Positions 11,588-42,902 of a stretch of DNA of 64,000 nucleotides are shown piece by piece (positions within the stretch are counted from its first letter, which is position 1; each line of letters begins with the position of its first letter). The stretch is from a virus: UHGV virus genome UHGV-0144373, one strand, 5' to 3'. The translations under genes and the position numbers were made by a program. The notes beneath the pieces were generated by a model. That model saw only the letters and a program-made list of their open reading frames with translations. It was not told the origin of the DNA and made no database searches.

Positions 11588-11601
11588 AACTTGACAAGGT
11601 G

Positions 11602-19380: not shown

Positions 19381-19394
19381 AAGTATATGATAAG

Positions 19395-19417
19395 AGGCTC
19401 CTACGGGAGCCTTTTTA
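19395..19417 (+). terminator. rho-independent terminator
   Basis: AGGCTCC-TACG-GGAGCCT then TTTTT. Confidence 0.55.
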
Positions 19418-19955: not shown

Positions 19956-22322
19956 ATGCGCATGGTAAACGACCACGCAGAAGTGCTTAAGAGTTCAACT
20001 TCTTTGGAGACATCTCAAGCACAGATTACAATGACACCTGAAATGTTCAGCCTTTTGAGTTCTGGTGTATACACATTTAAAGAGCGAGCAGTGATTCGTG
20101 AACTGTCATGTAATGCAGTGGATGCTCAGAAAGAAGCTGGAAAAGAGAACATCCCGTTCCATGTGCATTTACCTACTCGATTTGAGCCTTACTTTGAAGT
20201 CCGTGACTTTGGAACTGGATTGACTCATGATAAAGTTATGAGTTTGTACCTAAACTACGGAGCTTCTACGAAGAATGACTCTAATGATTACATTGGTGCA
20301 ATGGGTATCGGCTCAAAATCTCCATTTGCAATTGCTCAGTCATTCACAGTATCTAGCTATGTTGACGGTGTTGTTAATAAGTACTCTGTTTACCTTGAGA
20401 ATGGTATCCCTCAAGTAACTAAGCTTACTACTAACCAAACAAATGAACCTAATGGTTTAGCTGTACGTGTGGCAGTTGCTGACCACCGTATTTCAAAGTT
20501 CTTTGAAGAGGCTGGTCACGTATACTCATACTTTGCTGTAAAACCAGAAAGTAACATTGTATATGATGACGTGTTAGCAGATATGAACGTCATTGCCCGT
20601 GAAGAAGGTGTTTATGATGCTATGATTCATAAGCAAAGCTGGCGTTCTAGTGGCAACAGGACAGATTTTAATGTGGTAATGGGTAATATTGCCTACCCAG
20701 TTAATATGGAAGCATTACTTGGCGATGATTTCTTCAAAGTCTTGCCAGAATTTTTCCGTAGGAGCGTAGACCTTGTAAACATTTACATGCCTATTGGTTC
20801 AGTGGCTATTGCAGCTTCTCGTGAAGCATTGCAGATGAATGATACGACAAAAAATGTTATTATCGAGGCCACCAAAAAGATAACTGGAGCAATTACAAAG
20901 GATGTTATCAAGAAAGTTAATAGTCAACCTACACTCATGGATGCTGCACAGGCTTATGCTGAGTTACGTTTGAACTCACGAGAGATGTTTAATGCTGTGT
21001 GTCCAAAGCTGGAGTGGGGTGGTGTTAAGCTTGATTCTCTGGAAGAAGAATTACTAAACATTCGTCGTGGGATTATCTACGCAGAAGACGGCTCAGTCAT
21101 TTATGAACGTGACGGCAAAGGTAATATTAAGGTTGATAGGAACGGGAACAATATCCCTAAAGTAGATTATCTTTATAATCCAGTTGCTTATGTCAAGTTC
21201 AACTCTTTAGAGAGTAAGATTCGTGCAACAGCACTTTCCTACACTCAAGAGGCAAGTATGTTCAATATCTTTGGTGCAATGCGTAAAAGCCAAATTGAAC
21301 AGTTTTTGTTCGTGATTAATGACCGTCGCAATAAAAATGGCACTGAGAAGACTGTAGGCCGCAATCAGATTCTGCGTGGTGCATGTCGAGATTACGCCAA
21401 TGAGTCAAGTCTGTTTCACAGATACAATGGTATTGTGTTTGTATTCTCGACTGAAAAAGAGTTAGATGATTTAATCAACCTGCATAAACTTGATAAAAGC
21501 TTGTTAAAGATTGTGAAAATGTCTGATAAGGAACACCATTACCAGCGTAAAGAAGCTGTCAGGGGTGTTGTAAAACTCTGGAAAGCTGTTCCAGCAGAAG
21601 GTGTAGCCTCATACACAGAGGTGTCAGAAGACTTTGATACAATTGAAGAACCTCAGCTTTACATTAAGGCAGTTGGTGATACAGTTGATGGCGAATGTTT
21701 TTGCTCATCTCCAGAAGATGTAGCTAAGTCAGTTGCTAATGTTACAGGGAAGACAGTCTATGTTTTCCGAAAAGCAAATTGGAAAAAGATACCAGAAGAC
21801 TGGATTGAAGTAGATGAGAAGCTCTTGAACGACAGTTTAACTGATGTTCACTGGATTAATCATAACAGGTATATGACACGCATCTGTATGCGTGGTGTCC
21901 TTAACCTTACAAGCTGTTGGATTATTACCAGAAACTTTACGTTCAATAACAGGAAGATTTCTGATGGTTATTGCTATTCACGGGACACAAACAAAACTAT
22001 CTTCCTAGAAGGTAATGAAGATGCTGTTGAGGCAATGTTCGGTAAAATCCAATACGTTGCTGCACAATTTGCATACACTTACACTATTAGTGTGTTGCAA
22101 GATTTGAAAAGGTGTCTTGACAATGATACAAAGCTTTATAAGAAAATTAAGAAAGCTGGTGACCGTATGTTTATTAAGGTGACAAACTACTTCTCAAAAA
22201 GAAAACAAGAAAACTTCTTGCTTTCTCATTTAGATTGGAATAAAGTGTCACCCATTGAAGTGAGTAAGTTCTTGGGCTTTGATGTGAAGTGTGTTCCAGA
22301 AGGGACTACAATTTACGATTAA
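19956..22322 (+). CDS. rIIA: rIIA-like protein with N-terminal GHKL (Bergerat-fold) ATPase domain
   Basis: 788 aa; N-box ELSCNAVDA, G1 box VRDFGTGL, G2 box GAMGIGSKS in canonical order; rIIA assignment from architecture, size and following gene. Confidence 0.5.
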   Translation: MRMVNDHAEVLKSSTSLETSQAQITMTPEMFSLLSSGVYTFKERAVIRELSCNAVDAQKEAGKENIPFHVHLPTRFEPYFEVRDFGTGLTHDKVMSLYLNYGASTKNDSNDYIGAMGIGSKSPFAIAQSFTVSSYVDGVVNKYSVYLENGIPQVTKLTTNQTNEPNGLAVRVAVADHRISKFFEEAGHVYSYFAVKPESNIVYDDVLADMNVIAREEGVYDAMIHKQSWRSSGNRTDFNVVMGNIAYPVNMEALLGDDFFKVLPEFFRRSVDLVNIYMPIGSVAIAASREALQMNDTTKNVIIEATKKITGAITKDVIKKVNSQPTLMDAAQAYAELRLNSREMFNAVCPKLEWGGVKLDSLEEELLNIRRGIIYAEDGSVIYERDGKGNIKVDRNGNNIPKVDYLYNPVAYVKFNSLESKIRATALSYTQEASMFNIFGAMRKSQIEQFLFVINDRRNKNGTEKTVGRNQILRGACRDYANESSLFHRYNGIVFVFSTEKELDDLINLHKLDKSLLKIVKMSDKEHHYQRKEAVRGVVKLWKAVPAEGVASYTEVSEDFDTIEEPQLYIKAVGDTVDGECFCSSPEDVAKSVANVTGKTVYVFRKANWKKIPEDWIEVDEKLLNDSLTDVHWINHNRYMTRICMRGVLNLTSCWIITRNFTFNNRKISDGYCYSRDTNKTIFLEGNEDAVEAMFGKIQYVAAQFAYTYTISVLQDLKRCLDNDTKLYKKIKKAGDRMFIKVTNYFSKRKQENFLLSHLDWNKVSPIEVSKFLGFDVKCVPEGTTIYD

Positions 22323-22327
22323 AGTGT

Positions 22328-22357
22328 TTGACAAGGGGCTTTGAAGCCCCTTAGAAT
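22328..22357 (+). promoter_or_regulatory. promoter-like element with GC hairpin in the spacer
   Basis: TTGACA, 18-nt spacer containing GGGGCTTTGAAGCCCC, then TAGAAT. Confidence 0.35.
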
Positions 22358-23611: not shown

Positions 23612-24160
23612 ATGAAGAAATTGATTCTAGGTTTGTGCTTAATGTTTACAGCACACTTATCTTATGCAGTTGACTGCCCAGAGCTATCAATTAGCCAAAA
23701 AGTAAACATGTTAAAAGCTTACCAGTATGGCGAGAATAACATGGGTAAAGGTTGGGGTATCACTCTAGCTGCTATAGCCTTACAAGAGTCAGAGTTAGGT
23801 CTGAAGGTAGAGAATAAAAAGACACATGATTATGGTATTTTCCAGAACCACTTGAAGACTGTTGTAAAGCGTAACAAAATCAGTCCTAATGTGGCTAAAA
23901 AGAAACTCTTAAAAGATTTTGACTATGCTGCAAAGGAAACTCACAAAGAGCTTGAATTTTGGACTAAGGTACACGGTCAACCAAAGTCAAAGAAGACTTT
24001 ACAAAAAGTTTTAGCATCATATAATGCTGGGTATTCGTACAAAATCCCTAAAGCTAAGAAATATTCTCAAGATGTCTATAACAACATGAAAGTCATTGCT
24101 CAATGTGAATTTGCAACAAACATTTCTAAGGTAAACCATGAAAAAATTAAAAAAGTCTGA
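23612..24160 (+). CDS. secreted protein with lytic-transglycosylase-like motif
   Basis: Signal peptide MKKLILGLCLMFTAHLSYA; LAAIALQESELG resembles the SLT-domain catalytic Glu region. Confidence 0.4.
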   Translation: MKKLILGLCLMFTAHLSYAVDCPELSISQKVNMLKAYQYGENNMGKGWGITLAAIALQESELGLKVENKKTHDYGIFQNHLKTVVKRNKISPNVAKKKLLKDFDYAAKETHKELEFWTKVHGQPKSKKTLQKVLASYNAGYSYKIPKAKKYSQDVYNNMKVIAQCEFATNISKVNHEKIKKV

Positions 24161-26881: not shown

Positions 26882-27667
26882 ATGGGTATTGTAAAAATAA
26901 TCAATGGTGATATCTTTGCCGCATTTGATAAAGGTAAGTTTGACATCATCGGTCACGGTTGCAACTGTATGAATTTAATGGGTGCAGGTATTGCAGCAAC
27001 TATTTCTAAGCGTTATCCAAAAGTGTATGATACTGACACAGAAGTTTACCTGTTTGCAGGCGGCATCCGTCACAAACCCTGTGAAAATTTACTGGGTAAT
27101 TTCTCCGTAGCACGTTTAAAACAAGGCCGTATAGCTAACCTTTACACCCAACTTCATACTGGTAAAGATGCCCGATACAGTGCTTTAGAGTCATCTTTGA
27201 AACAGCTTAACAGATACTGTGAAGTTAACCAGTTGAAGAAAGTTGGTCTACCTATGATTGGTGCAGGTATTGGTGGACTCGACCCTCAAGCCGCCACAGT
27301 TATCATTAATCAGGTGATGAAAAGTGTAGATGTTTATCTGTATGTCTACGAAGGAGAGATGTACCACAAGTTACTCTCAGGTTGGAAGAACTACTGTGAA
27401 CCAGAATACTTTGCAGGTGTAGTAACGTTCACAGATAATACAGTTACCCTCTTCAGACGAAGAAAAGGTAAGATACATCAAAGTAACCCTCCGGTTGAAA
27501 AGATGTCTCTAAGTAACGCTCTAGTTACCCACCTGTCGAAGAGCAATCACAGAATTGCTGTGACATTTGGTAGTGATGCCGATGCTTACATTTATGCAAG
27601 AACTGATGAGGATATCGAGGCAATCTTCTCTTCACCAGAAGTTACCTTCTTAGACGCAAAGAACTAA
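26882..27667 (+). CDS. macrodomain protein (TARG1/OARD1-like), possible ADP-ribose hydrolase
   Basis: GDIFAAFDKGKFDIIGHGCNCMNLMGAGIA and VGLPMIGAGIGGLDP match the macrodomain signature pattern; about 110-aa C-terminal extension. Confidence 0.55.
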   Translation: MGIVKIINGDIFAAFDKGKFDIIGHGCNCMNLMGAGIAATISKRYPKVYDTDTEVYLFAGGIRHKPCENLLGNFSVARLKQGRIANLYTQLHTGKDARYSALESSLKQLNRYCEVNQLKKVGLPMIGAGIGGLDPQAATVIINQVMKSVDVYLYVYEGEMYHKLLSGWKNYCEPEYFAGVVTFTDNTVTLFRRRKGKIHQSNPPVEKMSLSNALVTHLSKSNHRIAVTFGSDADAYIYARTDEDIEAIFSSPEVTFLDAKN

Positions 27668-27730
27668 GAAACTCTGTAGGATATTCACAATAGGCTAAGC
27701 CTTTCTTATCTGGTAAATTTTTCAGGTAAG

Positions 27731-27920
27731 GAGGGCTTTTTCATTTCAGATTTGTGCAGGTAGAGTTCTGTAGAGGAATCTATAGAGAAAATTTTGAACT
27801 CCAAAGAGCTTTTTCATTTTCAAACTGTGCAGGTAATCTCCAAAGAGCTTTTTCATTTTCAAAACGTGCAGAGAAAAATCAGGTCGGGCAAGAAAAATCA
27901 TTTTAGAATTGTGCAGGTAG
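27731..27920 (+). repeat. four direct repeats (about 33 bp; iteron-like)
   Basis: 27731-27763, 27803-27836, 27841-27873, 27888-27920 share (AAAGAGC)TTTTTCATTTTCAAA-N-GTGCAGGTA; AT-rich stretch follows. Confidence 0.6.
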
Positions 27921-28094
27921 GTGGGTGTAGGTGGGGATGTCGCCATTTCTCACAAGGCTACCACATCCGAAAAGAAAAGTCAACAGAAAAATTTGTAGCG
28001 GATTGAAAAATAATTCTTGATTTGTTTTCTGTTTTGTGGTATTCGCGTGCGCCCGTTTCATTACATTTTGCCAAAAATATTTTTAAAATTTTTC

Positions 28095-28123
28095 TTGACT
28101 CCTCGAACGGGTTTTTATAGTAT
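28095..28123 (+). promoter_or_regulatory. sigma70-like promoter
   Basis: TTGACT, 17-nt spacer, TAGTAT. Confidence 0.4.
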
Positions 28124-28171
28124 TTGCATCAGACGGGGCGACAAGCTCCCTTCCTAAAATGGAAAGTCTAG

Positions 28172-28259
28172 AAAGTACTTTACAAGGGGCTTAAAAGTTG
28201 TTACCTTAAGCCCCAGATAAAGAGCTTTACCAACAACCTTAAACTAGGAGAATATGAAA
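28172..28259 (+). promoter_or_regulatory. class-A cassette element (copy 1)
   Basis: AAAGTACTTTACAA, hairpin GGGGCTTAA-N-TTAAGCCCC, AGATAAAGAGCTTTACC, then SD GGAGA and ATG. Confidence 0.6.
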
Positions 28260-28643
28260 ATGGCATATCGTGCACCTAAATTCATCAATAAAGATAATTT
28301 CCGCAATGCACTGGAAAAATCACTTGATGAGAATTTTACAGGTCAGATTATTGTTGTTCACGCATTCAATTTTAAGTATGATATTAACGGGAATAAAATC
28401 AATCATTACACGGCAACAATGTTAGATGGCACGCTTTCAAGTGAAAAAGCCGTACTAAATGCGCTTGCAGGACGTGGTAAAAACCTGATAAGATGCGATA
28501 AGAGACGTTATCAGGGCGGCGCATATGGTTATGATGATACTGTTTATCATCTTGAAAACATGGGCTATCAAGTAGAAAAAGCTGGAGTGTCGCAGATTAT
28601 TGGTCGTGATGGTTATGTAACTATCTTCAAAATTAACAAATAA
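28260..28643 (+). CDS. hypothetical small protein (cassette gene a)
   Basis: ATG28260 aligned with the conserved SD-ATG context. Confidence 0.45.
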   Translation: MAYRAPKFINKDNFRNALEKSLDENFTGQIIVVHAFNFKYDINGNKINHYTATMLDGTLSSEKAVLNALAGRGKNLIRCDKRRYQGGAYGYDDTVYHLENMGYQVEKAGVSQIIGRDGYVTIFKINK

Positions 28644-28730
28644 AGTACTTTACAAGGGGCTTATAGTTCGATAAAGTAAGCCCCAGATAAAGAGCTTTAC
28701 CACTAAATCCTAAATTGGAGAATCTGAAAA
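28644..28730 (+). promoter_or_regulatory. class-A cassette element (copy 2)
   Basis: Same element; palindrome TAAAGTACTTTA includes the upstream stop codon. Confidence 0.6.
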
Positions 28731-28988
28731 ATGGCTATTATTAAAAACGTTGTAATTACTGCAAAAACTCGTGATGACGCTCGCGTTATGGCTAAAAAGT
28801 TATGTGGGAAAGTGGTTGACAACGGGAAAAAATCTGCTGTAAGATGGGGCGTCAAGGTTGATAAACATTTAACCTTAAGACGCAGTTCAAACAACCTTTT
28901 TAAAGGTGTAAAATCACTCGGTAAAGTGAACGTTTTTACCAAAAAAGGCTATAAAATGCACTTATCATTAACTGGCAATTTAATCTGA
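28731..28988 (+). CDS. hypothetical small protein (cassette gene b)
   Basis: ORF after class-A element. Confidence 0.45.
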   Translation: MAIIKNVVITAKTRDDARVMAKKLCGKVVDNGKKSAVRWGVKVDKHLTLRRSSNNLFKGVKSLGKVNVFTKKGYKMHLSLTGNLI

Positions 28989-29076
28989 TAAAGTACTTTA
29001 CAAGGGGCTTAAAAGTTGTTACCTTAAGCCCCAGATAAAGAGCTTTACCACTAAATCCTAAATTGGAGATTCTAAA
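28989..29076 (+). promoter_or_regulatory. class-A cassette element (copy 3)
   Basis: Same element. Confidence 0.6.
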
Positions 29077-29589
29077 ATGAAAACTGTAGACGCTACCTTT
29101 GAAGTTGTAAAAGAAAAATTTTCAATTATCTATGAAGCGGTGAATTGCTACGAACCAAGCCATAATCTTGATGATTGGAAGTTTACAGATGACCATCAAG
29201 GCGGTGTGACTATTAAAAACCCCAACTATCGTCATAATGCCTTTAAATATGCAATCCCTTTAAATTATAGCCTTAAGCAGCTTTCTAGTGACTATGCAAA
29301 GCAAGGCCGGGAAAATCCATCCCGTGAGGCTTACATCAGCTTACAAAGAGAACTGGAAAGGGATTTAGAGGCTTCAGAATACAACCTTGCTGCAAAAGTT
29401 ATTGATGCAAATGGTCAAACAATTTTAGACAGTTTTTATATTGGTTACGCTTTCGATTGGTGCTATAGCGACGGCGTCGATTTAGAGGATAGACTAAAAG
29501 AGGAAGTGAGCAATTCAGGCGCAGAATCTGAAGTTATGGAACAACTAGAAGCCTTAAAAGATTCAGTGATGAATATCTTTAAGAACTAA
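29077..29589 (+). CDS. hypothetical protein (cassette gene c)
   Basis: 170 aa. Confidence 0.45.
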   Translation: MKTVDATFEVVKEKFSIIYEAVNCYEPSHNLDDWKFTDDHQGGVTIKNPNYRHNAFKYAIPLNYSLKQLSSDYAKQGRENPSREAYISLQRELERDLEASEYNLAAKVIDANGQTILDSFYIGYAFDWCYSDGVDLEDRLKEEVSNSGAESEVMEQLEALKDSVMNIFKN

Positions 29590-29681
29590 ATAGATTTCTT
29601 TACACGGGGTTATCAAGCTGATAAGATAGCCCCAGATAAAGAGCTTTATTTAAATCAACCCTTAAACTAGGAGATTCTAAA
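29590..29681 (+). promoter_or_regulatory. class-A cassette element (variant copy 4)
   Basis: Variant hairpin GGGGTTATC...GATAGCCCC, then AGATAAAGAGCTTTA and class-B-like CTTAAACTAGGAGATTCTAAA. Confidence 0.5.
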
Positions 29682-29978
29682 ATGAAATTATCAAATAAAG
29701 TTAGGGAAAATCTAAGCAAGTTACTCAACAAAATCGATTTTATCGAGACCTCAAGAAATACTCATGAGGTTATGGAATGGTTACACGGGAAAATAAATGG
29801 CCGCCGTGTAGTGATTTGTTTATGGAATAGTTGCAGGGAGTATAAAAAACCTGTATTACAAATTAATGTTTATGATGATACTTTTAAAAGTCCAGTAAAG
29901 TCTAAAAGCGATTTATTAGAATCTTATGAGATATCTGTAAATGGTAAAATCTCACAAAAAGAGGCAATACCATGCTGA
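29682..29978 (+). CDS. hypothetical small protein (cassette gene d)
   Basis: ORF. Confidence 0.45.
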   Translation: MKLSNKVRENLSKLLNKIDFIETSRNTHEVMEWLHGKINGRRVVICLWNSCREYKKPVLQINVYDDTFKSPVKSKSDLLESYEISVNGKISQKEAIPC

Positions 29979-30304
29979 TGACTGGTGTCACCGCAATTAT
30001 AGCCATTTTCGCGCTCTATAAGGCATATAAAGCCTATAATCTGGCAAGTAAGGCAATCACGCAGCAGGTTAGTAATAGCCTTGTAGAGAGCTTTCTAGAG
30101 CGTTTAAACGATGAACAAATAAAACGGTTAGAAATGAGCTTCAGATTTCAATCAAAAACTTATCAAATCAGCGACATTTTCAAAGATGATTTTCAGCTTG
30201 TCGATGATTATAACTCTCTGATAAATGCTTTAAATATCAGTGACTTAAAAGACTACTACGCTGTAATTGTCCAAGAAATGAGCAAACGAAAACAAAATGC
30301 TTGA
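29972..30304 (+). CDS. hypothetical small membrane protein (cassette gene e)
   Basis: N-terminal TM helix; AAAGAGG SD; no private element. Confidence 0.4.
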   Translation: MLMTGVTAIIAIFALYKAYKAYNLASKAITQQVSNSLVESFLERLNDEQIKRLEMSFRFQSKTYQISDIFKDDFQLVDDYNSLINALNISDLKDYYAVIVQEMSKRKQNA

Positions 30305-30393
30305 CACTGGTTTTTAGATAAATTAAATTACACATCAACGGGGAGGAAATGACCCCCCCACTAAATAAAACCCTTAAACTAGGAGATTCAAAA
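30301..30393 (+). promoter_or_regulatory. class-B cassette element (copy 1): promoter plus 5' stem-loop plus conserved SD
   Basis: TTGACA-17-TAAATT, hairpin GGGGAGG-AAATGA-CCCCCCC, leader ACTAAATAAAACCCTTAAACTAGGAGATTCAAAA. Confidence 0.55.
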
Positions 30394-30666
30394 ATGTATG
30401 CTACTAACAATGGTCGTACTCTAAATGTCACTCTGCGTCACTATGTAGACGGTGTGATGCACTTTGAGGATTTACGGGCTGAACAATATATCTTAGATTG
30501 GCAAGTCGCAGGACTCCAAAAAACTGTTACGGGATACGGTAAAAAGATTCCAACCAGTTGGAAAGTTCACTACAAAGGACGTTTGCGCAGAATTTATCAG
30601 GATGTTTGTAGCAATAGCGCATCAAGTTACATCATGGTAAAAGGTAAAAAGCTGCATTTAGTTTAA
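30394..30666 (+). CDS. hypothetical small protein (cassette gene f)
   Basis: ATG30394 after conserved SD; upstream in-frame ATG30349 lies in the hairpin loop and is not taken as the start. Confidence 0.45.
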   Translation: MYATNNGRTLNVTLRHYVDGVMHFEDLRAEQYILDWQVAGLQKTVTGYGKKIPTSWKVHYKGRLRRIYQDVCSNSASSYIMVKGKKLHLV

Positions 30667-30751
30667 AGTACTTTACAAGGGGCTTAAAAGTTGTTACCTT
30701 AAGCCCCAGATAAAGAGCTTTACCACTAAATCCTAAATTGGAGATTCAAAA
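30667..30751 (+). promoter_or_regulatory. class-A cassette element (copy 5)
   Basis: Same as copy 1. Confidence 0.6.
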
Positions 30752-31156
30752 ATGGCTATTAATAATCGTGAATTATCAATCTTAAAAGCACGTTTGACCA
30801 TTAATAGAATTAATGTTATGACATCAGCAGCGCCAGATGAAACCTTATATAATATTATTGGAAAGATTCAAAGTGTTATCTTAGACGTTGAAAACGTGAA
30901 AAACTCATTAACTGACGTTGCAGCAGGTATCACGCTAGACGGTGCACAATACGAAATGGCTGACATGTTGGGCAAATCTAAGGTAATGAATAAAGAGCTG
31001 GATTTAAAAATTTTTAGGTTCGCCGTGAAAGTATGGCTATCCGTCGAGTATGATGCTAATTATGCAATCGCTGACTTTTTCGCCACTTGGTTACAACGTA
31101 ATTTGACAAATCACGATTTTCGTGGTATCTGCGATGCAATTTATGCAGAACTCTAA
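30752..31156 (+). CDS. hypothetical protein (cassette gene g)
   Basis: 134 aa. Confidence 0.45.
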   Translation: MAINNRELSILKARLTINRINVMTSAAPDETLYNIIGKIQSVILDVENVKNSLTDVAAGITLDGAQYEMADMLGKSKVMNKELDLKIFRFAVKVWLSVEYDANYAIADFFATWLQRNLTNHDFRGICDAIYAEL

Positions 31157-31165
31157 AAAATTTTC

Positions 31166-31258
31166 TTGACGCTGGTTTTTAGATAGATTAAATTACACAT
31201 CAACGGGGAGGGTATGACCTCCCCACTAAATAAAACCCTTAAACTAGGAGATTCTAAA
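31166..31258 (+). promoter_or_regulatory. class-B cassette element (copy 2)
   Basis: TTGACG-17-TAAATT; perfect hairpin GGGGAGG-GTATGA-CCTCCCC. Confidence 0.55.
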
Positions 31259-31462
31259 ATGGCTATTATTAACGGTTTAAACATTGAAACCACACACATC
31301 AAAGATATTAAAGTCGGTGATACAGTTCTCTTTCACGGCGTAGAAAAAACCGTCACTGCAAAGGATATAAAAGAGGATTCTTTCATGGGTAGGACTCTTT
31401 TCGGTGATTCTTATTGCTTAGGTTACCTTGCAGTTTTAAAAGTTGTCAAAAATAACAAATAA
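31259..31462 (+). CDS. hypothetical small protein (cassette gene h)
   Basis: ATG31259 after conserved SD. Confidence 0.45.
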   Translation: MAIINGLNIETTHIKDIKVGDTVLFHGVEKTVTAKDIKEDSFMGRTLFGDSYCLGYLAVLKVVKNNK

Positions 31463-31547
31463 AGTACTTTACAAGGGGCTTATAGTTCGATAAAGTAAGC
31501 CCCAGATAAAGAGCTTTACCACTAAATCCTAAACTGGAGATTCTAAA
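31463..31547 (+). promoter_or_regulatory. class-A cassette element (copy 6)
   Basis: Same as copy 2. Confidence 0.6.
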
Positions 31548-32090
31548 ATGAAATGCTTTCACGGTACTACTCAAGAAAATTTCCTCAACCTGATTAATAA
31601 CGGTGATAAACCATCAGGTGCATGGAATTGTTCGGATATGGACGGCAATTTTTACGTGTACCCAGAGAATAAAATCTATGGCGACGATGAGGAAGAGATA
31701 ATCTCTGAAGGTATCCAACAAGCTATGGGAAATGCCGCTATCACCGCAGCTTTCCAGATGAAAACTCAAAACATTGTTATCTTGGAACTTGATATTCCAG
31801 AGGATGAGTTGAATGATGATTTCTCTTGCGATAATATGTCGAGCGTGGCAAGTTTTACAGAATACTTCGATTTGAATTGGATTAAAAAGGTTTACGTAAC
31901 CGAGTTTAATGCGATGTTTTCGCCTTTTTGTCTTCCTTCATTGGATAACCCAAATTTGAACTATCTTGATGAGTCTCTGGAGCTTCTTGCGAAAAGCGTT
32001 CAACAGGCGGACAGTATTCAGGTTTTTTGTGACATCATGGACACACTAACGGGAAACATCGCAGAGGGAGATTTAAAGAGCTTTTTCTGA
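31548..32090 (+). CDS. hypothetical protein (cassette gene i)
   Basis: 180 aa. Confidence 0.45.
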   Translation: MKCFHGTTQENFLNLINNGDKPSGAWNCSDMDGNFYVYPENKIYGDDEEEIISEGIQQAMGNAAITAAFQMKTQNIVILELDIPEDELNDDFSCDNMSSVASFTEYFDLNWIKKVYVTEFNAMFSPFCLPSLDNPNLNYLDESLELLAKSVQQADSIQVFCDIMDTLTGNIAEGDLKSFF

Positions 32091-32156
32091 AAACCTATGC
32101 AATCACCTTATAAACACTAATCAGCCCCTTGTAGGGGCTTTTAGGGGGCTTAAATC

Positions 32157-32390
32157 ATGCTTATAACCGTTTATCTCATCCTTTCTATTTGTAATGGCCA
32201 TTCATGCGACTTTAAAGGGCTTGAAGCGTTTACAGGAAGTAAAGAAAACGCTATTCAGGTTTGTCAGATAGCAAGACAAGACTACCCCGCCAGTGATGAT
32301 ATTCAATGCTACTTTAAAACAGAAGATGACGATGTAATCTATTTTGACAGCGTTGACGGTCAATATGAAATTATCATAGAAAAAGACTAG
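32157..32390 (+). CDS. hypothetical small protein (cassette gene j)
   Basis: ORF after hairpin AGCCCCTTGTAGGGGCT. Confidence 0.4.
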   Translation: MLITVYLILSICNGHSCDFKGLEAFTGSKENAIQVCQIARQDYPASDDIQCYFKTEDDDVIYFDSVDGQYEIIIEKD

Positions 32391-32480
32391 ACAAGCATGA
32401 TAAAAATCTGTAAATTACTAATTAACGGGGAGGAAATGACCCCCCCACTAAATAAAACCCTTAAACTAGGAGATTCAAAA
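32388..32480 (+). promoter_or_regulatory. class-B cassette element (copy 3)
   Basis: TAGACA-17-TAAATT; hairpin GGGGAGG-AAATGA-CCCCCCC. Confidence 0.5.
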
Positions 32481-32822
32481 ATGGCTTATGTAACCGTAAT
32501 TACCGATAAAGCTGGTTCATCTTGGTCAACTCAAGTAAGTGATAAGATGACACCTATGCAGTGCCTAAAATACTTTGAGCAATGGAATAAAGGCGAGGAA
32601 ACAAGCCCCTTTCAAGTGATGCAGATTATTCATGTAGACAATGAAGGGAATAAAACGGTTTTAAGTAGTGAGTACTACGCAAACCGCTTCGAAACGAGAA
32701 GTAAAGCAATGAAGCTTCTACGTGAATCCGGTTACTCCCATATCGCCGCACTAATCTGGGATGACCTGCTAAAAAACCAACGTATCAGCTATGTAAAACC
32801 TGAAAAAATATTCATCAGTTAA
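32481..32822 (+). CDS. hypothetical protein (cassette gene k)
   Basis: ATG32481 after conserved SD. Confidence 0.45.
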   Translation: MAYVTVITDKAGSSWSTQVSDKMTPMQCLKYFEQWNKGEETSPFQVMQIIHVDNEGNKTVLSSEYYANRFETRSKAMKLLRESGYSHIAALIWDDLLKNQRISYVKPEKIFIS

Positions 32823-32956
32823 TCAATAACTTACAAAAAACTTCTAAAAAAGTGTTGACAATACCCCTTGACATTGGTAATGTTGTTCGAGGGGGTTTAT
32901 CTAAAAGGGATTAACTTAAAAGATTCTTTATAGATAAGCTTAAAAAAAAAAATTGC

Positions 32957-33047
32957 TTGCAATCAGATATCAAAACAAGTAAATTACTAATCAACGGGAG
33001 GGATGACCTCCCCACTAAATAAAATCCTTAAACTAGGAGATTCAAAG
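32957..33047 (+). promoter_or_regulatory. class-B cassette element (copy 4)
   Basis: TTGCAA-17-TAAATT; hairpin GGGAGG-GATGA-CCTCCCC. Confidence 0.5.
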
Positions 33048-33578
33048 ATGAACAAGTTCAAAGCTATCAATTACATTCGTTCAAATGCTGTAATGTCTAA
33101 ACCTGTTAAAGATACCTATGAATTTCGCTGCAATGGTGTACACTTTGCAACCATCACTAAATCAGAAAAAGGGGCTTATTACGTTCATCGTCGTAATGTT
33201 GCAACCGTTGTAGTCTCTCATTTTATGCAAGCTATAGCGGAGTTATTACCGCTATTCTTAGAAATTTACTTAGATGAGTGTAAAAACGTTCACAAACACG
33301 TTAAAAGCCTTTTAAACAGTTATAAAATGGCTTACGAGCGTTCTATCAAGTTTTTAAACAAGTTCTATAAAGCCCCTGTAAATACTGTTTCAATGGCTTA
33401 CAATGTAAGCGGTGAGTTGGTTAGTCTCTTCGAAGTGGAAGAAATCGAACTATATAACTCACGTCCTGATGGTTACGCTAAGACACTGGGGGAAGGCTTA
33501 TCTTTCAATATCAAGAACTTAGAAAAAACTCTAAAAGATATTGAAAAAGATATTGACGAGACAATCAAAAATCTGTAA
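33048..33578 (+). CDS. hypothetical protein (cassette gene l)
   Basis: ATG33048 after conserved SD. Confidence 0.45.
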   Translation: MNKFKAINYIRSNAVMSKPVKDTYEFRCNGVHFATITKSEKGAYYVHRRNVATVVVSHFMQAIAELLPLFLEIYLDECKNVHKHVKSLLNSYKMAYERSIKFLNKFYKAPVNTVSMAYNVSGELVSLFEVEEIELYNSRPDGYAKTLGEGLSFNIKNLEKTLKDIEKDIDETIKNL

Positions 33579-33643
33579 ATTGTCAATCAACGGGGAGGCG
33601 ATAACCTCCCCACTAAATAAAGTCCTAAACTGGAGTTATCAAG
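33553..33643 (+). promoter_or_regulatory. class-B cassette element (copy 5)
   Basis: TTGACG-17-TAAATT; hairpin GGGGAGG-CGATAA-CCTCCCC (no ATG in loop). Confidence 0.5.
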
Positions 33644-33907
33644 ATGGAAAACGTAGAATTAACCACACTTTTACAAATTGCAACCGACAAAGAAAACGTA
33701 GCTTTATTTCACCGCATCGAAAGTGATTTGTTCAATGGTGAAATCATCAAAGAGTCTTACGAGGTTGTTGGATTCAAAGATGGTAAAACATTTGGATTCT
33801 TTGACCTCGAAAAAGGCAACGCTGTTACAAAATATGATGTTTTATCTTGTGAGATTCTTACAAAATACAACGAAAAAAGGCTTGCAACATACGCCAATAT
33901 GCAGTAA
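33644..33907 (+). CDS. hypothetical small protein (cassette gene m)
   Basis: ORF. Confidence 0.45.
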   Translation: MENVELTTLLQIATDKENVALFHRIESDLFNGEIIKESYEVVGFKDGKTFGFFDLEKGNAVTKYDVLSCEILTKYNEKRLATYANMQ

Positions 33908-33972
33908 ATTACTAATCAACGGGAGGGATGACCTCCCCACTAAATAAAATCCTTAAACTAGGAGATTCAAAA
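33883..33972 (+). promoter_or_regulatory. class-B cassette element (copy 6)
   Basis: TTGCAA-17-TAAATT; hairpin GGGAGG-GATGA-CCTCCCC. Confidence 0.5.
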
Positions 33973-34221
33973 ATGGCAACTATCCGCGCTACTGTTAACG
34001 AGTTCGGTTTTTCCTCTCTGGATGTTAAATTTGACATTGCAGGCACTGATAACGCCTTTGAAATGGTGAAAGGTCTTATCAGTCAGACCATCAAAGATTA
34101 TAATCCTTCGGATGAGTTCTGGGAGGAAACAAAACAAGAAGTTCTCAAGGATGGTTATACTTATCACTATTGGGGCGATTTAATTGTTTCCCTGTACTAC
34201 GATAAACAAGGTTACAACTAA
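33973..34221 (+). CDS. hypothetical small protein (cassette gene n)
   Basis: ATG33973 after conserved SD. Confidence 0.45.
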   Translation: MATIRATVNEFGFSSLDVKFDIAGTDNAFEMVKGLISQTIKDYNPSDEFWEETKQEVLKDGYTYHYWGDLIVSLYYDKQGYN

Positions 34222-34261
34222 TCAACGCAGCGGGGCTAAACAGCCCCAGATACCTTTATAC

Positions 34262-34284
34262 AGCCCCTCATAGGGGCTTTTTTA
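34262..34284 (+). terminator. rho-independent terminator
   Basis: AGCCCCT-CAT-AGGGGCT then TTTTTT; preceded by a second hairpin GGGGCT-AAAC-AGCCCC (34232-34247). Confidence 0.55.
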
Positions 34285-34289
34285 CGTCT

Positions 34290-35945
34290 TATCAAATCCC
34301 TTATACAACCCTTTCCCTTTCCTTTCCAGAATCTTTCCACTGATTCGATAAAGCCTATCTCATACCTTAAAAAGCAATAACTCTATAGCCTATTCTATAG
34401 CCTTTTATCAAATCCACTAATTGGCATTGTTACCAATCCCTTAAATATAAGCCCATAACCCGAAAGGGAAGGGCAACCCCTAAAACGCTCTATAACGCTC
34501 TATAACAGCCTTATCAACCTAACTTAATGGATTGCATTACCTCACCTTAAAAAGCTCTTTACAGGGCTTTATAGAGCCTTAAAAGAACCTTATAAGGGTA
34601 TAAGCTTTATCATCTCGTTAGTATTCTTGTGAACTACTAAAAAGGGTTTGATAGTTCCTTTAAAGTATGTTATAGGGGCTATAAAGTTACTTCAAAGTAA
34701 CGTAAAAGTTGCTTAAAAGTTACGTAAATGCTAGCCACCTTTAACATTTTCTTAACAATTTCTTAACAATCCCTACATAGTTATACTTGTTAGCAACTTG
34801 TCAGCCCCTTGTTAAATCTCTGTTAAGACCATGTAAAAGCCTTGTAAGAGTCTTTGACATAGCCTTTAAAGCTCCTGTAAAGCCCTATAAAGAGCTATCC
34901 ATACAGTTGAGGGGTAAATACTAGGGAGATACTAAAAGAGCCTATAAAGAGCTATAGAGAGCTTTTAAGAGGTATGTTTAAAGAATCACTAAAAGGGAAA
35001 GGGAACGATAAGAAAGAGATAGTGACCATGTTAACAGTTTGTTAAAAAGATTAAACACTTGTTAGGAACTTGTTAATTATCTTAATTGGTATTGTTACCA
35101 ATCCCTACAAAATAACTCTTTAAAATTAACTATATAGCTCTTGTTAGTCATCTATTAAGAATCTGTAAAGACTATTCAGCACTTGTTAGAAAACTGTTAC
35201 ACTCTTGTTAGTTCTGTTAAGAATCTGTTAAGACCTTTAAAGAGATGTTAAGACGATGTGAGAACTGTTAAGAGATTGTTAAGGATATTTTAAAATTTTG
35301 CAAAGGGGGTGTTAAGGAGCTGTTAAGGGCTACCAAGCAGATATACATCCTAATCAGATATTTTTCAGTTCCTTCAAAGACCCTAAAAAATGACTTGATA
35401 GTCCTATTTTATAAAAATTTTAAAATTCTGAATAATTACCTATACAGTCTTTTAAAAATACAGGTAGAAACAGGCTTATAAGATACCTTGTTAGTACCGT
35501 GTTAGACCTTGTGAGATAAGGTCTGTAAAGATATTCCTGTTAAGTTTGTTAAAACAGTCTATATAGAGGCTTAGTAATACCTAGTGAACACCTATAGAGG
35601 GTATCATAGCTAACCTAATGGGTTACTGTTAAGTAACACAGGTAACCTAGAGATTAAGAGGTGTATAGGAGCTTCTAAGAGGGTATAGAGAGATGGTTAA
35701 GGTGATTGTATAGGTTGTTAAGAAGGCTTGTTAGAGGGCTATTTAGAAGGGTTATACAGATGGCTATTAAGACCACTAGATAGTTACTAAGATACTATAT
35801 AGTACTATATAACTATATAGAGAGTAAGATTAAGAAGGTTGTTAAGAAGGATAGATATTTTATTCACATATGATGGTGACCCAGAGGTTGGGACAACCGA
35901 TAAAATTTTATAAAAAATATAAATTTCGTAAATTTTACTCAATAA
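34290..35945. repeat. 1.65-kb ORF-free, AT-rich region dense in short repeats
   Basis: No ORF of 60 aa or more on either strand; many copies of TGTTAAG/CTTGTTAG, TAAAGAGCT and TATAGAGAGCTT; duplicated 23-mer AATTGG(C/T)ATTGTTACCAATCCCT at 34419-34441 and 35084-35106. Confidence 0.7.
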
Positions 35946-35972
35946 AAAGCCCCCAATTAAGGAGGCTCTTAA
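35946..35972 (-). terminator. rho-independent terminator (minus strand)
   Basis: Minus-strand reading: AGCCTCC-TTAATT-GGGGGCT then TTTTTATT, just downstream of the stop of the 35979-36530 gene. Confidence 0.45.
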
Positions 35973-35978
35973 GATATT

Positions 35979-36530
35979 TTAAATCAGTGTTTCCAGAACT
36001 GTTTTTAGTGATGACTTAGTTGTCTGATAAAAATGAGTGAATCCGTTGTTGTTATCGAATATCTGCATCATGATATCATCTCCCTTGATTGGGTATACTC
36101 GGATATCATAGTGAAACCCATTAAAGACAGCAGAACCATTACAGAATACACTAAAATCACTTGCTGAGATGTACTCTTCATGACCTGTGATTTTTATACA
36201 GACACCTTTACTCGGTCTCTTAGGATTGATATCTTCCATCACAGACATACTCTGTCCACCAAGAGATACCATAGTGACCACTTTACGGTTCTTCTGTTTA
36301 AAGTACATCTTAACTTTCTGTAAAGTGTCTTCATAGAACGGGTAAGACTTCTCTACAAAGACTCCTTCAAGTGGCTCTTTACCATTTTTAACTTCTCTGA
36401 TATGTCGTATTGAGAAGACAAGCTGCTCTAGTATGTCAAGGCTTTCTTTGGATAATGCTTCTCGAACATCACTCCAGTCAAGTACTAGGTAGTTACCTTC
36501 AACTTCTTTTACATCCATAAGCTCTTTCAT
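35979..36530 (-). CDS. hypothetical protein
   Basis: 183 aa; ATG with GAAGGTAG SD; no confident motif. Confidence 0.4.
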   Translation of the reverse strand: MKELMDVKEVEGNYLVLDWSDVREALSKESLDILEQLVFSIRHIREVKNGKEPLEGVFVEKSYPFYEDTLQKVKMYFKQKNRKVVTMVSLGGQSMSVMEDINPKRPSKGVCIKITGHEEYISASDFSVFCNGSAVFNGFHYDIRVYPIKGDDIMMQIFDNNNGFTHFYQTTKSSLKTVLETLI

Positions 36531-42869: not shown

Positions 42870-42902
42870 CATCAAACAACAAACGAGAGAAGAGAGTAAA
42901 AT

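What the first reader, a model, noticed from the sequence alone, without database searches (positions are those of the whole stretch)
28172..34290. Island of 14 small ORFs, each with a private copy of one of two conserved upstream cassettes
Every ORF between 28.2 and 34.2 kb (67-180 aa, no recognisable domain) is preceded by one of two conserved 80-90 bp elements. Class A (6 copies): palindrome TAAAGTACTTTA spanning the upstream stop codon, hairpin GGGGCTTAA-N-TTAAGCCCC, then AGATAAAGAGCTTTACC-ACTAAATCC-TAAATT-GGAGATTCTAAA-ATG. Class B (6 copies): TTGACR/TTGCAA-17-TAAATT promoter, immediate 5' stem-loop GGGGAGG-loop-CCTCCCC, then ACTAAATAAAACCCTTAAACTAGGAGATTCAAAA-ATG. Unrelated coding sequences sharing near-identical expression signals is the layout expected of a recombination-prone accessory island (host takeover or anti-defence). 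The AAAGAGCTTT core recurs in the 27.8-kb direct repeats and in the 34.9-kb non-coding region.
Basis: seen in the sequence. Interest (0 to 1): 0.8.

Follow-up and report, generated by a model that had tools for sequence, protein, structure and literature searches.

The report
Promoter-hairpin gene cassettes in Felix O1-like phage
A 6-kb stretch of a Felix O1-type phage genome carries 14 small genes of unknown function, 12 of them behind one of two standard promoter-hairpin-ribosome-site cassettes that also act as recombination points, much like the PeSL cassettes known from T4-like phages, so it is a real but largely familiar design.

Summary
The window is a Felixounavirus (Felix O1-like myovirus) genome at about 88-90% identity to known isolates. 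The repeats are real: six class A and six class B cassettes fill the gaps before 12 of the 14 ORFs between 28.2 and 34.2 kb.

- **Class A:** TTTACA-N17-TAnnnT, with a GGGG...CCCC hairpin lying between the -35 and the -10/+1. Two dyad boxes flank it (TAAAGTACTTTA and TAAAGAGCTTTA).
- **Class B:** TTGACA/TTGCAA-N17-TAAATT. A GC-rich hairpin starts 3-4 nt after the predicted start site.
- **Shared 3' end:** both classes end in one A-rich leader with GGAG-N8-ATG.
- **Conservation:** about 155 class A and 110 class B copies from about 25 Ounavirinae genomes keep the sigma-70-critical bases, while the hairpin sequence varies with compensation.
- **Recombination:** gene gains and losses between relatives have their junctions inside chimeric cassettes. 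Cassette subtypes are spread across genes in a non-orthologous way, which points to gene conversion.
- **Dispensability:** the homologues in phage SUSP1 all scored "Not Fit" in a published knockdown screen.

The closest known system is the promoter-early stem-loop (PeSL) cassette of T4-like phages. I call this a new member of that kind in another phage subfamily. Promoter activity, RNA processing and the ORF functions remain untested.

The parts
27697..27738 (+). Intrinsic terminator closing the upstream unit (Felix O1 t13). It forms the left boundary of the island.
   Evidence: Terminator scan. The same sequence is listed as t13 in the Felix O1 paper.
28095..28170 (+). Orphan class-B-like promoter (TTGACT-N17-TAGTAT, 28095-28123) with an imperfect 5' hairpin. 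It is a deletion scar: relatives carry a 68-aa gene (F34) here.
   Evidence: Promoter scan. The alignment with JN01 and adrianh shows the deletion, with an ATCTAA microhomology at the junction.
28171..28259 (+). Class A cassette 1. Box1 28171-28182, -35 28179-28184, -10 28202-28207, hairpin 28186-28214, box2 28218-28229, SD 28247-28250. It carries the SD2-type leader. Serves ORF 28260-28643.
28641..28730 (+). Class A cassette 2 (-35 28649-28654, -10 TAAAGT 28672-28677). The stop codon of the upstream ORF is the TAA of box1. Serves ORF 28731-28988.
   Evidence: The RNA fold gives -21.6 kcal/mol, z -5.3.
28989..29076 (+). Class A cassette 3 (-10 TACCTT 29020-29025). Serves ORF 29077-29589.
29591..29681 (+). 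Class A variant (A2). Box1 is degenerate (TAGATTTCTTTA), the hairpin is GGGGTTAT..ATAGCCCC, and the -10 is TAAGAT with a TG extension. Serves ORF 29682-29978 and the overlapping ORF 29972-30304.
30301..30393 (+). Class B cassette 1. TTGACA-N17-TAAATT, hairpin 30340-30359, SD 30382-30385. Serves ORF 30394-30666.
30664..30751 (+). Class A cassette 5. Serves ORF 30752-31156.
31166..31258 (+). Class B cassette 2 (TTGACG-N17-TAAATT, hairpin 31205-31224). Serves ORF 31259-31462.
31460..31547 (+). Class A cassette 6. Serves ORF 31548-32090, the candidate ADP-ribosyltransferase-fold protein.
   Evidence: Fold search.
32123..32156 (+). Terminator-like hairpin AGCCCCTTGTAGGGGCT followed by TTTT and a private SD. 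This is not a cassette. Precedes ORF 32157-32390.
32388..32480 (+). Class B cassette 3 (TAGACA-N17-TAAATT, hairpin 32427-32446 with one mismatch). Serves ORF 32481-32822.
32957..33047 (+). Class B cassette 4 (TTGCAA-N17-TAAATT, A-tract upstream, hairpin 32996-33013). Serves ORF 33048-33578.
33553..33643 (+). Class B cassette 5. The -35 lies inside the upstream ORF, and that ORF's stop codon is part of the -10 TAAATT. Serves ORF 33644-33907.
33882..33972 (+). Class B cassette 6. Serves ORF 33973-34221.
34222..34284 (+). Degenerate cassette remnant (ATCAAC..GGGGCTAAACAGCCCCAGATA) followed by an intrinsic terminator (34262-34278 plus a T run). It forms the right boundary of the island.
   Evidence: The terminator corresponds in position to Felix O1 t23.

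Best explanation
The island is the accessory early-gene region of a Felix O1-like phage. It is built from standard expression cassettes of the promoter-early stem-loop (PeSL) type.

**Layout.** Each cassette fills the whole 85-100 nt between one ORF's stop codon and the next start codon. It supplies three things:
1. A host sigma-70 promoter.
2. A GC-rich stem-loop.
3. A common unstructured A-rich leader with a fixed strong ribosome site (GGAG, 8 nt, ATG).

**Class B.** The promoter (TTGACA/TTGCAA-N17-TAAATT, with an A/T-rich upstream tract) is followed by the stem-loop 3-4 nt after the predicted start. There it would cap the 5' end of the mRNA and slow 5'-end-dependent decay.

**Class A.** The stem-loop lies between the -35 (TTTACA) and the -10/+1. 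Transcripts arriving from upstream contain the whole hairpin, so they can be attenuated or processed there. Transcripts started at the cassette itself do not contain it.

**Recombination.** The cassettes are 82-87% identical to each other and lie in direct orientation. They therefore act as portable homology. Recombination and gene conversion between them delete, insert and re-equip single genes without disturbing the neighbours.

**Shown here:** the anatomy, the conservation pattern, the hairpin compensation, crossovers inside cassettes, and dispensability in a relative.

**Inferred:** promoter activity, start sites, the roles of the hairpins, and early timing.
For: **Promoter signature**
- In 155 class A copies from about 25 Ounavirinae genomes, CTTTACA is kept in 151 and TAnnnT lies exactly 17 bp downstream in about 149. 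The three middle bases of the hexamer vary freely. G at -14 is present in most copies, and TGn in about 80.
- In the 114-row alignment the only invariant loop bases are T39, A40 and T44, which are the -12, -11 and -7 positions.
- In 110 class B copies the spacing is 17 in 109, and the -10 is TAAATT, TAAAGT, TAATAT or TAGTAT.
- The regions upstream of the -35 are 68-84% A+T, against 61 +/- 8% for random 25-mers.

**Hairpins are structural**
- The inner class A stem is paired in 98% of cells. It shows GGGG/CCCC to GGTG/CACC compensation in Erwinia phages and C-G to U-G changes in 41 rows.
- Class B-type stems differ in sequence but stay paired: GGGGAGG/CCTCCCC, GGGCAA../..GCCC, GGGAAAC/..TCCC, GAGGGG/CCCCTC.

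**Standardised ribosome site**
- GGAG is present in 12 of 14 island genes, at 8-nt spacing in 10 of them. Elsewhere in the window it is present in 23 of 88 genes, at mixed spacing.

**Insulated unit**
- Intrinsic terminators bracket the island, so it needs promoters of its own.

**Recombination**
- The junction cassettes of four indels switch from left-parent to right-parent sequence inside the conserved core. The four are Felix O1 lacking F13-F15, Felix O1 lacking F6-F7, and allfine and UAB87 each lacking F18.
- The hairpin subtype before a given gene differs between genomes, while one subtype serves several genes within a genome.
- Paralogous cassettes reach 99% identity, while some orthologous ones are only 73-80% identical.

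**Same design elsewhere**
- Promoter-plus-hairpin composites occur 20 times in the window against 1.0 +/- 0.8 in shuffles. One lies between rIIA and rIIB.

**Timing and dispensability**
- Felix O1 RT-PCR put ORFs 16, 20, 21 and 22 (island homologues) at maximum expression 5 min after infection.
- The SUSP1 island homologues scored "Not Fit".

**Precedent**
- PeSLs have the same parts, including stem-loops between the -35 and -10 and GGGG..CCCC stems.
Against: - No transcript start, reporter or half-life data exist for any Ounavirinae cassette in the literature I could search.
- Neither hairpin is followed by a U-tract, so the terminator role shown for PeSL stem-loops cannot simply be carried over.
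- The near-invariance of CCAGATAAAGAGCTTTA from E. coli phages to Erwinia phages, and the dyad symmetry of both boxes, exceed what a promoter or a plain leader needs.
- Felix O1 RT-PCR placed ORFs 17, 19 and 23 at 25 min, so not all island genes peak early.
- Gene order is largely conserved across three genera, so shuffling is occasional rather than rampant.
Confidence: 0.68

Rival explanations
1. Class A is mainly an RNA processing signal. In read-through transcripts, box1 pairs with box2 to form an 11-bp lower stem. Together with a 3x3 internal loop and the 9-bp upper stem, this gives a two-turn hairpin like the RNase III sites between the early genes of phage T7. Cleavage would separate the cistrons and leave each upstream mRNA with a protective 3' hairpin. 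This reading does not exclude the promoter reading.
For: - The minimum-free-energy fold of three copies is exactly this two-stem structure (-18.5 to -22.5 kcal/mol, z -3.9 to -5.3).
- The outer helix is paired in 90% of cells. One pair covaries: G-C 93, U-A 13, against 7 breaks.
- The parts of the two boxes that would lie next to the internal loop are the invariant ones.
- One hairpin per intergenic gap is the layout of the T7 early region (established knowledge).
Against: - Each box is itself a dyad, so the two must be complementary whatever the cause. RNA pairing does not require that.
- The central pair 14-60 is unpaired in 100 of 114 rows. The Erwinia copies have two central mismatches with no compensation.
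- The covarying pair belongs largely to one cassette lineage (A2), so it may be a single event copied by gene conversion.
- The invariant TA...T in the loop is not explained.
- There is no Rfam match.
Confidence: 0.25
2. The two dyad boxes of class A (TAAAG-NN-CTTTA) are operators for a dimeric DNA-binding protein of the phage or the host. Box1 overlaps the -35 and box2 lies at about +5 to +16. The protein would switch these promoters off, or on, after the early phase.
For: - Both boxes are dyad-symmetric and lie 47 bp apart. They straddle the promoter, and their centre dinucleotide varies freely (GT-AC, GT-GC, GA-GC). That is the usual pattern for operators.
- AAAGNNCTTT is strongly enriched (20 against 3.6) and recurs near the island at 27803, 27842 and 32075.
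- Box2 is conserved across genera beyond what a leader needs.
Against: - No candidate regulator has been identified. The one "putative transcriptional regulator" annotated in the part of a relative's genome that I inspected (positions 1-45000) is uncharacterised.
- The Felix O1 paper reports no factor that modifies RNA polymerase.
- The asymmetry of conservation (box1's right half and box2's left half are invariant, the outer halves looser) is not what a symmetric operator predicts.
- Class B has no such boxes, yet it serves the same kind of gene.
Confidence: 0.15
3. The hairpins are only transcription terminators or attenuators between genes of one operon, and the promoter-like hexamers are fossils or coincidence.
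For: - PeSL stem-loops reduced read-through in reporter constructs.
- Annotators of phage KhF1 called the class B hairpin a Rho-independent terminator, on the opposite strand.
- The terminator scan also flags two class B hairpins on the minus strand.
Against: - No U-tract follows either hairpin on the coding strand.
- There are no minus-strand genes in the island.
- The class B hairpin lies downstream of its own promoter, so as a terminator it would kill that promoter's transcript.
- The sigma-70-critical bases are invariant while their neighbours vary.
Confidence: 0.08

Closest known systems
PeSL (promoter-early stem-loop) cassettes of T4-like phages: RB49/phi1, T4/PST, KVP40/nt-1 (Arbiol et al. 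2010, PMC2839356; Comeau et al. 2014, PMC4122927)
   Same: - Repeated intergenic cassettes lie upstream of small ORFs of unknown function in plastic regions.
- Each has an A/T-rich tract, a sigma-70-like -35/N17/-10 (TTTACW in the T4/PST pair), and a stem-loop often built from a G-run and a C-run. The stem-loop can sit between, overlap or flank the promoter boxes. The SD and start codon lie at the 3' end.
- They are found at indel and replacement junctions between close relatives (compared).
   Different: - This is a different phage subfamily (Ounavirinae, about 88-kb genomes).
- There are only two sharply defined classes, which share one leader.
- No U-tract follows the stems, so the terminator function is doubtful.
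- Class A carries two conserved dyad boxes, and a box2 that stays near-invariant across genera.
- Class B places the stem-loop at the 5' end of its own transcript.
- Mini-circles and promoter or terminator activity have not been tested here.
RNase III processing sites of the phage T7 early region (established knowledge, recalled from memory)
   Same: There is one irregular two-stem hairpin with an internal loop in each gap between small early genes. The predicted class A RNA has about 20 bp in two stems around a 3x3 loop.
   Different: T7 sites lie in one long transcript from three upstream promoters and contain no promoter. Here the hairpin is embedded in a promoter-like element. Cleavage is untested.
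5'-terminal stabiliser stem-loops such as the ompA 5' UTR (Emory, Bouvet and Belasco 1992; recalled from memory)
   Same: In class B a stable GC-rich stem-loop begins 3-4 nt after the predicted 5' end. An unstructured leader and a strong SD follow it.
   Different: The start site is predicted, not mapped. No half-life data exist.
Host-takeover module of Bacillus phage SPO1 (Stewart et al. 1998; recalled from memory)
   Same: A cluster of many small early genes of unknown function, each group with its own strong host-type promoter and an unusually strong ribosome-binding site.
   Different: As far as I recall, the SPO1 signals are not near-identical repeated cassettes with hairpins, and the module lies in the terminal redundancy. 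This island does not: the physical ends map near window position 50 kb.
Intergenic repeats of halovirus HF2 that carry promoters (PMC8707807, abstract seen)
   Same: Two classes of repeated intergenic elements in a virus genome that were proposed to be promoters and were tested with reporter fusions.
   Different: HF2 is an archaeal virus with archaeal promoters. I did not read the paper beyond the start of its abstract.
Integron gene cassettes with attC hairpin sites (established knowledge)
   Same: Single genes are flanked by repeated hairpin-forming sites, and the unit can be lost or gained as a whole.
   Different: Integron cassettes have no promoter and depend on an integrase acting on folded single strands. 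No integrase is present here. The junctions look like ordinary homologous exchange.

Membership tests
PeSL (promoter-early stem-loop) cassettes | A repeated intergenic motif upstream of small ORFs of unknown function, clustered in a plastic region | tested here: met
   Twelve cassettes lie before 12 of 14 ORFs, and none lies elsewhere in the window. The ORFs belong to PHROG families of unknown function.
PeSL (promoter-early stem-loop) cassettes | Sigma-70-like -35/N17/-10 sequence | tested here: met
   Sequence level only. TTTACA-N17-TAnnnT is kept in about 149 of 155 class A copies. Spacing is 17 in 109 of 110 class B copies.
PeSL (promoter-early stem-loop) cassettes | Measured promoter activity with host RNA polymerase | not testable with these tools
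   This needs reporter fusions or transcript start mapping. No published data were found.
PeSL (promoter-early stem-loop) cassettes | A/T-rich tract upstream of the -35 | tested here: met
   68-84% A+T in the 25 nt upstream, against 61 +/- 8% for random 25-mers. The signal is strongest for class B.
PeSL (promoter-early stem-loop) cassettes | Stable stem-loop next to or overlapping the promoter, typically G-run/C-run | tested here: met
   98% of cells are paired, with compensatory changes. Folds are and position classes.
PeSL (promoter-early stem-loop) cassettes | The stem-loop terminates or attenuates upstream transcription | tested here: inconclusive
   No U-tract follows either hairpin. The function cannot be measured here.
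PeSL (promoter-early stem-loop) cassettes | SD and start codon at the 3' end of the element | tested here: met
   GGAG-N8-ATG closes 10 of the 12 cassettes; the other two have GGAG at a different spacing.
PeSL (promoter-early stem-loop) cassettes | Located at insertion, deletion or replacement junctions between close relatives | tested here: met
   Four junctions are chimeric cassettes. An extra gene, F50, in KhF1 is flanked by class A copies.
PeSL (promoter-early stem-loop) cassettes | Formation of cassette-plus-ORF mini-circles | not testable with these tools
   This needs inverse PCR on infected cells or virion DNA.
RNase III processing site (T7 early type) | About two turns of double-stranded RNA, often interrupted by an internal loop | tested here: met
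   Prediction only: 11 + 9 bp around a 3x3 loop, z down to -5.3.
RNase III processing site (T7 early type) | Base pairing maintained by selection (covariation) | tested here: inconclusive
   The inner stem is clear. The outer stem has one covarying pair (93 G-C, 13 U-A, 7 breaks), but the boxes are dyads and the copies are related by gene conversion.
RNase III processing site (T7 early type) | Cleavage dependent on RNase III | not testable with these tools
   This needs end mapping in rnc+ and rnc- hosts.
5'-terminal mRNA stabiliser hairpin | Stem-loop within a few nucleotides of the 5' end of the transcript | tested here: inconclusive
   The hairpin starts 10 nt after the -10 in all six class B copies, which is 3-4 nt after the predicted +1. 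The start site has not been mapped.
Rfam RNA families | Match to any curated covariance model | tested here: not met
   The only window hits at gathering score are tRNAs. Nothing scores at E <= 1 in 27500-36000.

The most novel reading that the evidence does not exclude
Class A is a dual-use element. As DNA it is a promoter. As read-through RNA, or as extruded DNA, it is a long hairpin whose two dyad boxes are conserved from Erwinia phages to E. coli phages. A dedicated phage factor would recognise those boxes to time expression, process the transcripts, or catalyse exchange of gene-plus-cassette units. That would amount to an integron-like gene-cassette system in a strictly lytic phage.
Probability: 0.12. 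Interest if true: 0.7.

Novelty: new member of a known kind. Interest (0 to 1): 0.4.

Why it matters
**Reach of the design.** If the reading holds, the promoter-stem-loop cassette is not a T4 peculiarity. It would be a recurrent way for large lytic phages to keep a bank of small optional genes individually expressed and easy to swap. That would extend the PeSL idea to the Felix O1 group, which is widely used for Salmonella typing and biocontrol.

**Practical uses.**
- It gives precise predicted start sites and natural landing pads for engineering these phages.
- It warns that guides or primers aimed at the ribosome-binding sites in this island will cross-hit several genes.
- It offers a compact set of natural promoter and leader parts.

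**Open problem.** The conservation of the CCAGATAAAGAGCTTTA box across genera is unexplained and worth one experiment.

Tried and rejected
1. **RegB link.** Annotators of phage Mushroom labelled the homologue of window 23612-24160 \"T4 RegB-like\". That suggested the uniform GGAG sites might be nuclease targets. The protein has no RegB match in Pfam or PDB sequences. It has a weak, sub-threshold SLT-domain match in Pfam, some distant homologues carry that domain, and UniRef names close homologues \"Lysin\". Rejected.
2. **T4 MotA-type middle promoter.** Box1 contains TGCTTTA in many copies. No MotA or AsiA is annotated in the part of a relative's genome that I inspected, positions 1-45000. Rejected as a geometry mismatch.
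3. **Minus-strand terminators.** The class B hairpin is annotated this way in KhF1 and flagged by the scan. There are no minus-strand genes here and no real T-run. Rejected.
4. **Genome terminus beside the island.** Several records open at window position ~35334. The experimentally determined 608-bp terminal repeats of UAB_Phi87, and the carefully opened BASEL record, place the ends near window position ~50 kb. Rejected.
5. **ORFs as fragments of a larger gene.** Each ORF matches a PHROG family over its full length. Rejected.
6. **Known RNA families.** Rfam gave nothing.
7. **Transcriptome literature on Felix O1-like phages.** Nothing was found in the held library.

Full report
**What the window is.** The 8-kb stretch around the finding matches 262 phage records. 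The best are Escherichia phages adrianh and JN01 at about 88% identity over the full length, and all belong to Felixounavirus and its relatives. The window also carries 25 tRNA genes, rIIA/rIIB, and a macro-domain "phosphatase" (Pfam Macro, E 7.7e-8) just before the island. It is therefore a Felix O1-like myovirus genome of about 88 kb.

- The repeat finder recovers the two families. Exact-word searches place every copy between 28.1 and 34.0 kb and none elsewhere in the 64 kb.
- A regular-expression dissection gives the coordinates of every part of the six class A and six class B copies.
- The motifs are far above chance: AAAGNNCTTT 20 against 3.6, TTTACA-N17-TAnnnT 8 against 1.9, and ATAAAGAGCT 10 against 0.25.
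- Only 12 of the 14 ORFs own a cassette. ORF 29972-30304 overlaps its upstream neighbour by 7 nt. ORF 32157-32390 follows a terminator-like hairpin and has its own ribosome site.
- The two classes are not wholly distinct. Both end in the same leader, ACTAAAT...CC(T)TAAA(C/T)T(A)GGAGATTC, then 3-4 A and ATG.
- The ORFs have no Pfam domain. Each matches a PHROG family of unknown function over its full length, so they are genuine small genes.

**Anatomy of class A.** I collected 155 copies from 13 annotated islands and about a dozen IMG/VR contigs.
- CTTTACA is kept in 151 copies.
- A hexamer TAnnnT lies exactly 17 bp downstream in about 149. Its middle three bases vary freely (AAG, TCT, AGA, TGA, GTA, CCT, GGA, ATC).
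- G at -14 is present in most copies, and a full TGn extended -10 in about 80.
- In the 114-row alignment the only invariant bases inside the otherwise variable hairpin loop are T39, A40 and T44. These are the -12, -11 and -7 positions, the three most conserved positions of sigma-70 -10 elements (established knowledge). G37 is nearly invariant.
- The stem GGGGYTTA/TAAGCCCC lies between the -35 and the -10/+1 and is paired in 98% of cells. It shows a GGGG/CCCC to GGTG/CACC double change in the Erwinia phage copies and C-G to U-G changes in 41 rows.
- The predicted start is the C or A of CCCCAGA. Transcripts born at the cassette therefore lack the hairpin, while read-through transcripts contain it.

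**The two dyad boxes.** They flank the class A hairpin.
- TAAAGTRCTTTA overlaps both the upstream stop codon and the -35.
- TAAAGAGCTTTA lies at about +5 to +16.
- The second box and the preceding CCAGA are almost invariant even in Erwinia phages.

**Anatomy of class B.**
- In 110 copies the -35 is TTGACA, TTGCAA, TTGACG, TAGACA, TTGATT or TTGACT. The spacing is 17 in 109 copies. The -10 is TAAATT in 85.
- The 25 nt upstream are 68-84% A+T, against 61 +/- 8% for random 25-mers.
- The hairpin begins 10 nt after the -10 in all six window copies, which is 3-4 nt after the predicted start.
- Its sequence differs between cassette lineages but stays paired: GGGGAGG/CCTCCCC, GGGCAA../..GCCC, GGGAAAC/..TCCC, and GAGGGG/CCCCTC in Erwinia phage.
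- A stem-loop that close to a 5' end is the classic arrangement that protects E. coli mRNAs from 5'-end-dependent decay (established knowledge). That role is inferred here, not shown.

**The common leader.** GGAG is present in 12 of 14 island genes, at 8-nt spacing in 10. Elsewhere in the window it is present in 23 of 88 genes, at mixed spacing.

**Context.**
- Intrinsic terminators bracket the island at 27697-27738 and 34262-34278. These are Felix O1's t13 and the site corresponding in position to t23. The island therefore needs its own promoters.
- At the left edge sits an orphan promoter with a hairpin (28095-28170). Alignment with JN01 and adrianh shows that a 68-aa gene present in most relatives was deleted here at an ATCTAA microhomology.
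- At the right edge sits a degenerate cassette remnant (34222-34250).
- The promoter-plus-hairpin design is not confined to the island. A scan finds 20 such composites in the window against 1.0 +/- 0.8 in shuffles. Examples are TTGACA-AGGGGCTTTGAAGCCCCT-TAGAAT between rIIA and rIIB, and cases where a -10 abuts a true terminator.

**Comparison across relatives.**
- Gene order is syntenic in Felixounavirus, Mooglevirus and Suspvirus. It is rearranged in the Erwinia phages.
- Content varies. Felix O1 lacks F6-F7 and F13-F15. F18 is missing in four genomes. KhF1 has an extra gene, F50. Mooglevirus and Suspvirus have F53, F56, F55 and F45. F33 sits at two different places.
- For four indels I aligned the junction cassette with the two parental cassettes of a genome that keeps the segment. 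In every case the junction follows the left parent through the promoter, switches inside the shared hairpin or leader, and follows the right parent into the gene. This is what homologous exchange between direct repeats leaves behind.
- Hairpin subtypes tell the same story. The gene F8 carries subtype h1, h15, h10, h4, h2 or h14 depending on the genome. Within one genome a single subtype serves up to four different genes.
- The SD-proximal module swaps freely for the same gene.
- Paralogous cassettes in the window are 82-87% identical on average and reach 99%. Some orthologous cassettes are only 73-80% identical.

**What was already known.**
- The Felix O1 genome paper lists a 57-bp repeat (class A) between genes 15/16 and 19/20, and a 39-bp repeat (the class B promoter) between 18/19 and 20/21. 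It gives them as plain direct repeats with no interpretation, and states that temporal control is not understood.
- Annotators of phage Mordin marked 14-bp repeats before the ribosome sites. Those of KhF1 called the class B hairpin a minus-strand terminator.
- A comparative paper on the genus does not mention the elements.
- The closest described system is the PeSL of T4-like phages. A PeSL has an A/T-rich tract, a sigma-70-like promoter (TTTACW-N17-TAYWAT in T4/PST), and a stem-loop, often GGGG...CCCC. The stem-loop may lie between the boxes, overlap them or flank them. The SD and start codon sit at the 3' end. PeSLs are enriched in hyperplastic regions, lie at indel junctions, and can form mini-circles.
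- Every sequence-level PeSL feature is met here. Terminator activity is doubtful because no U-tract follows the stems. Promoter activity and mini-circles cannot be tested with these tools.

**Function of the island.**
- Felix O1 RT-PCR put ORFs 16, 20, 21 and 22 at maximum 5 min after infection, and ORFs 17, 19 and 23 at 25 min. The island is therefore at least partly early.
- In the transcriptome-wide dCas13d screen of phage SUSP1, the homologues shown in the supplement (agp095 to agp109) are all "Not Fit". None of the 19 Fit genes lies in the island. The guides target the ribosome-site regions, which are near-identical between cassettes, so cross-hits are likely. That study also admits false negatives.
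- This is a weak hint of a host-modifying enzyme sitting next to a macro-domain gene. No anti-defence function was shown for any ORF.

**Rivals.**
- *RNA processing.* Class A RNA folds into an 11-bp lower stem (box1 with box2), a 3x3 loop and a 9-bp upper stem (-21.6 kcal/mol, z -5.3). This resembles T7 RNase III sites. One outer pair covaries (G-C 93, U-A 13, 7 breaks). However, the boxes are dyads and so complementary by construction. The centre is unpaired in most rows. The covarying rows belong largely to one cassette lineage.
- *Operator pair.* A pair of operators for a dimeric regulator would explain the dyads and their free centres, but no candidate regulator has been identified.
- *Terminator only.* This reading fails on the missing U-tract and on the invariant promoter bases.
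- None of these rivals excludes the composite-cassette reading. The processing idea in particular may be a second function of class A.

**Verdict.** The [quoted passage not shown] reading is largely right, while "host takeover or anti-defence" is untested. The design is a Felix O1-group counterpart of a known T4-group system. Its most puzzling residue is the cross-genus invariance of the CCAGATAAAGAGCTTTA box.

Noticed in passing
[not shown]
   Followed up: partly
window 34290-35978: A 1.7-kb non-coding stretch lies between convergent transcription units. It is dense in short repeats (CTGTTAAG/CTTGTTAG, TATAAAGAGCTAT twice, a 33-nt pair at 34418 and 35083). Several GenBank records are opened at about 35334, yet the physical genome ends map elsewhere. 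It may be a replication origin or a protein-binding array.
   Followed up: no
window 27715-27919: Three tandem copies of a roughly 40-nt unit end in TGTGCAGGTA. The first includes the real terminator hairpin. The other two carry CTCCAAAGAGCTTTTTCATTTT, which contains the same AAAGAGCTTT word as box2 of class A.
   Followed up: no
window 28095-28171: This is a deletion scar. Most relatives have a 68-aa gene here behind this promoter. The window phage lost it at an ATCTAA microhomology, which leaves two promoters in tandem before ORF 28260-28643.
   Followed up: yes
window 22320-22357, 11591-11620, 19364-19415; minus strand near 42870, 39750, 37688: Promoter-plus-hairpin composites occur outside the island. 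One is TTGACA-AGGGGCTTTGAAGCCCCT-TAGAAT between rIIA and rIIB. In others a -10 abuts an intrinsic terminator. The window total is 20 against 1.0 expected.
   Followed up: partly
window 23612-24160: The homologue in phage Mushroom is annotated "T4 RegB-like". Sequence searches show no RegB match. There is a weak, sub-threshold SLT-domain hit in Pfam, some distant homologues carry that domain, and UniRef names close homologues "Lysin".
   Followed up: yes
window 32823-32956: This is an unusually long (225 nt in all) gap before ORF 33048. It holds a weak extra promoter-like site (TTGACA-N17-TAATGT, 32855-32883) and an 11-A tract. Mooglevirus genomes carry a 46-aa ORF in the equivalent gap.
   Followed up: no
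phage records GU169904 (Staphylococcus phage SA1) and MG065664 (Campylobacter phage A132): These two records carry near-identical class A cassettes (88-98% identity) despite their unrelated nominal hosts. This suggests Felix O1-like sequence in those records rather than true spread of the element.
   Followed up: no
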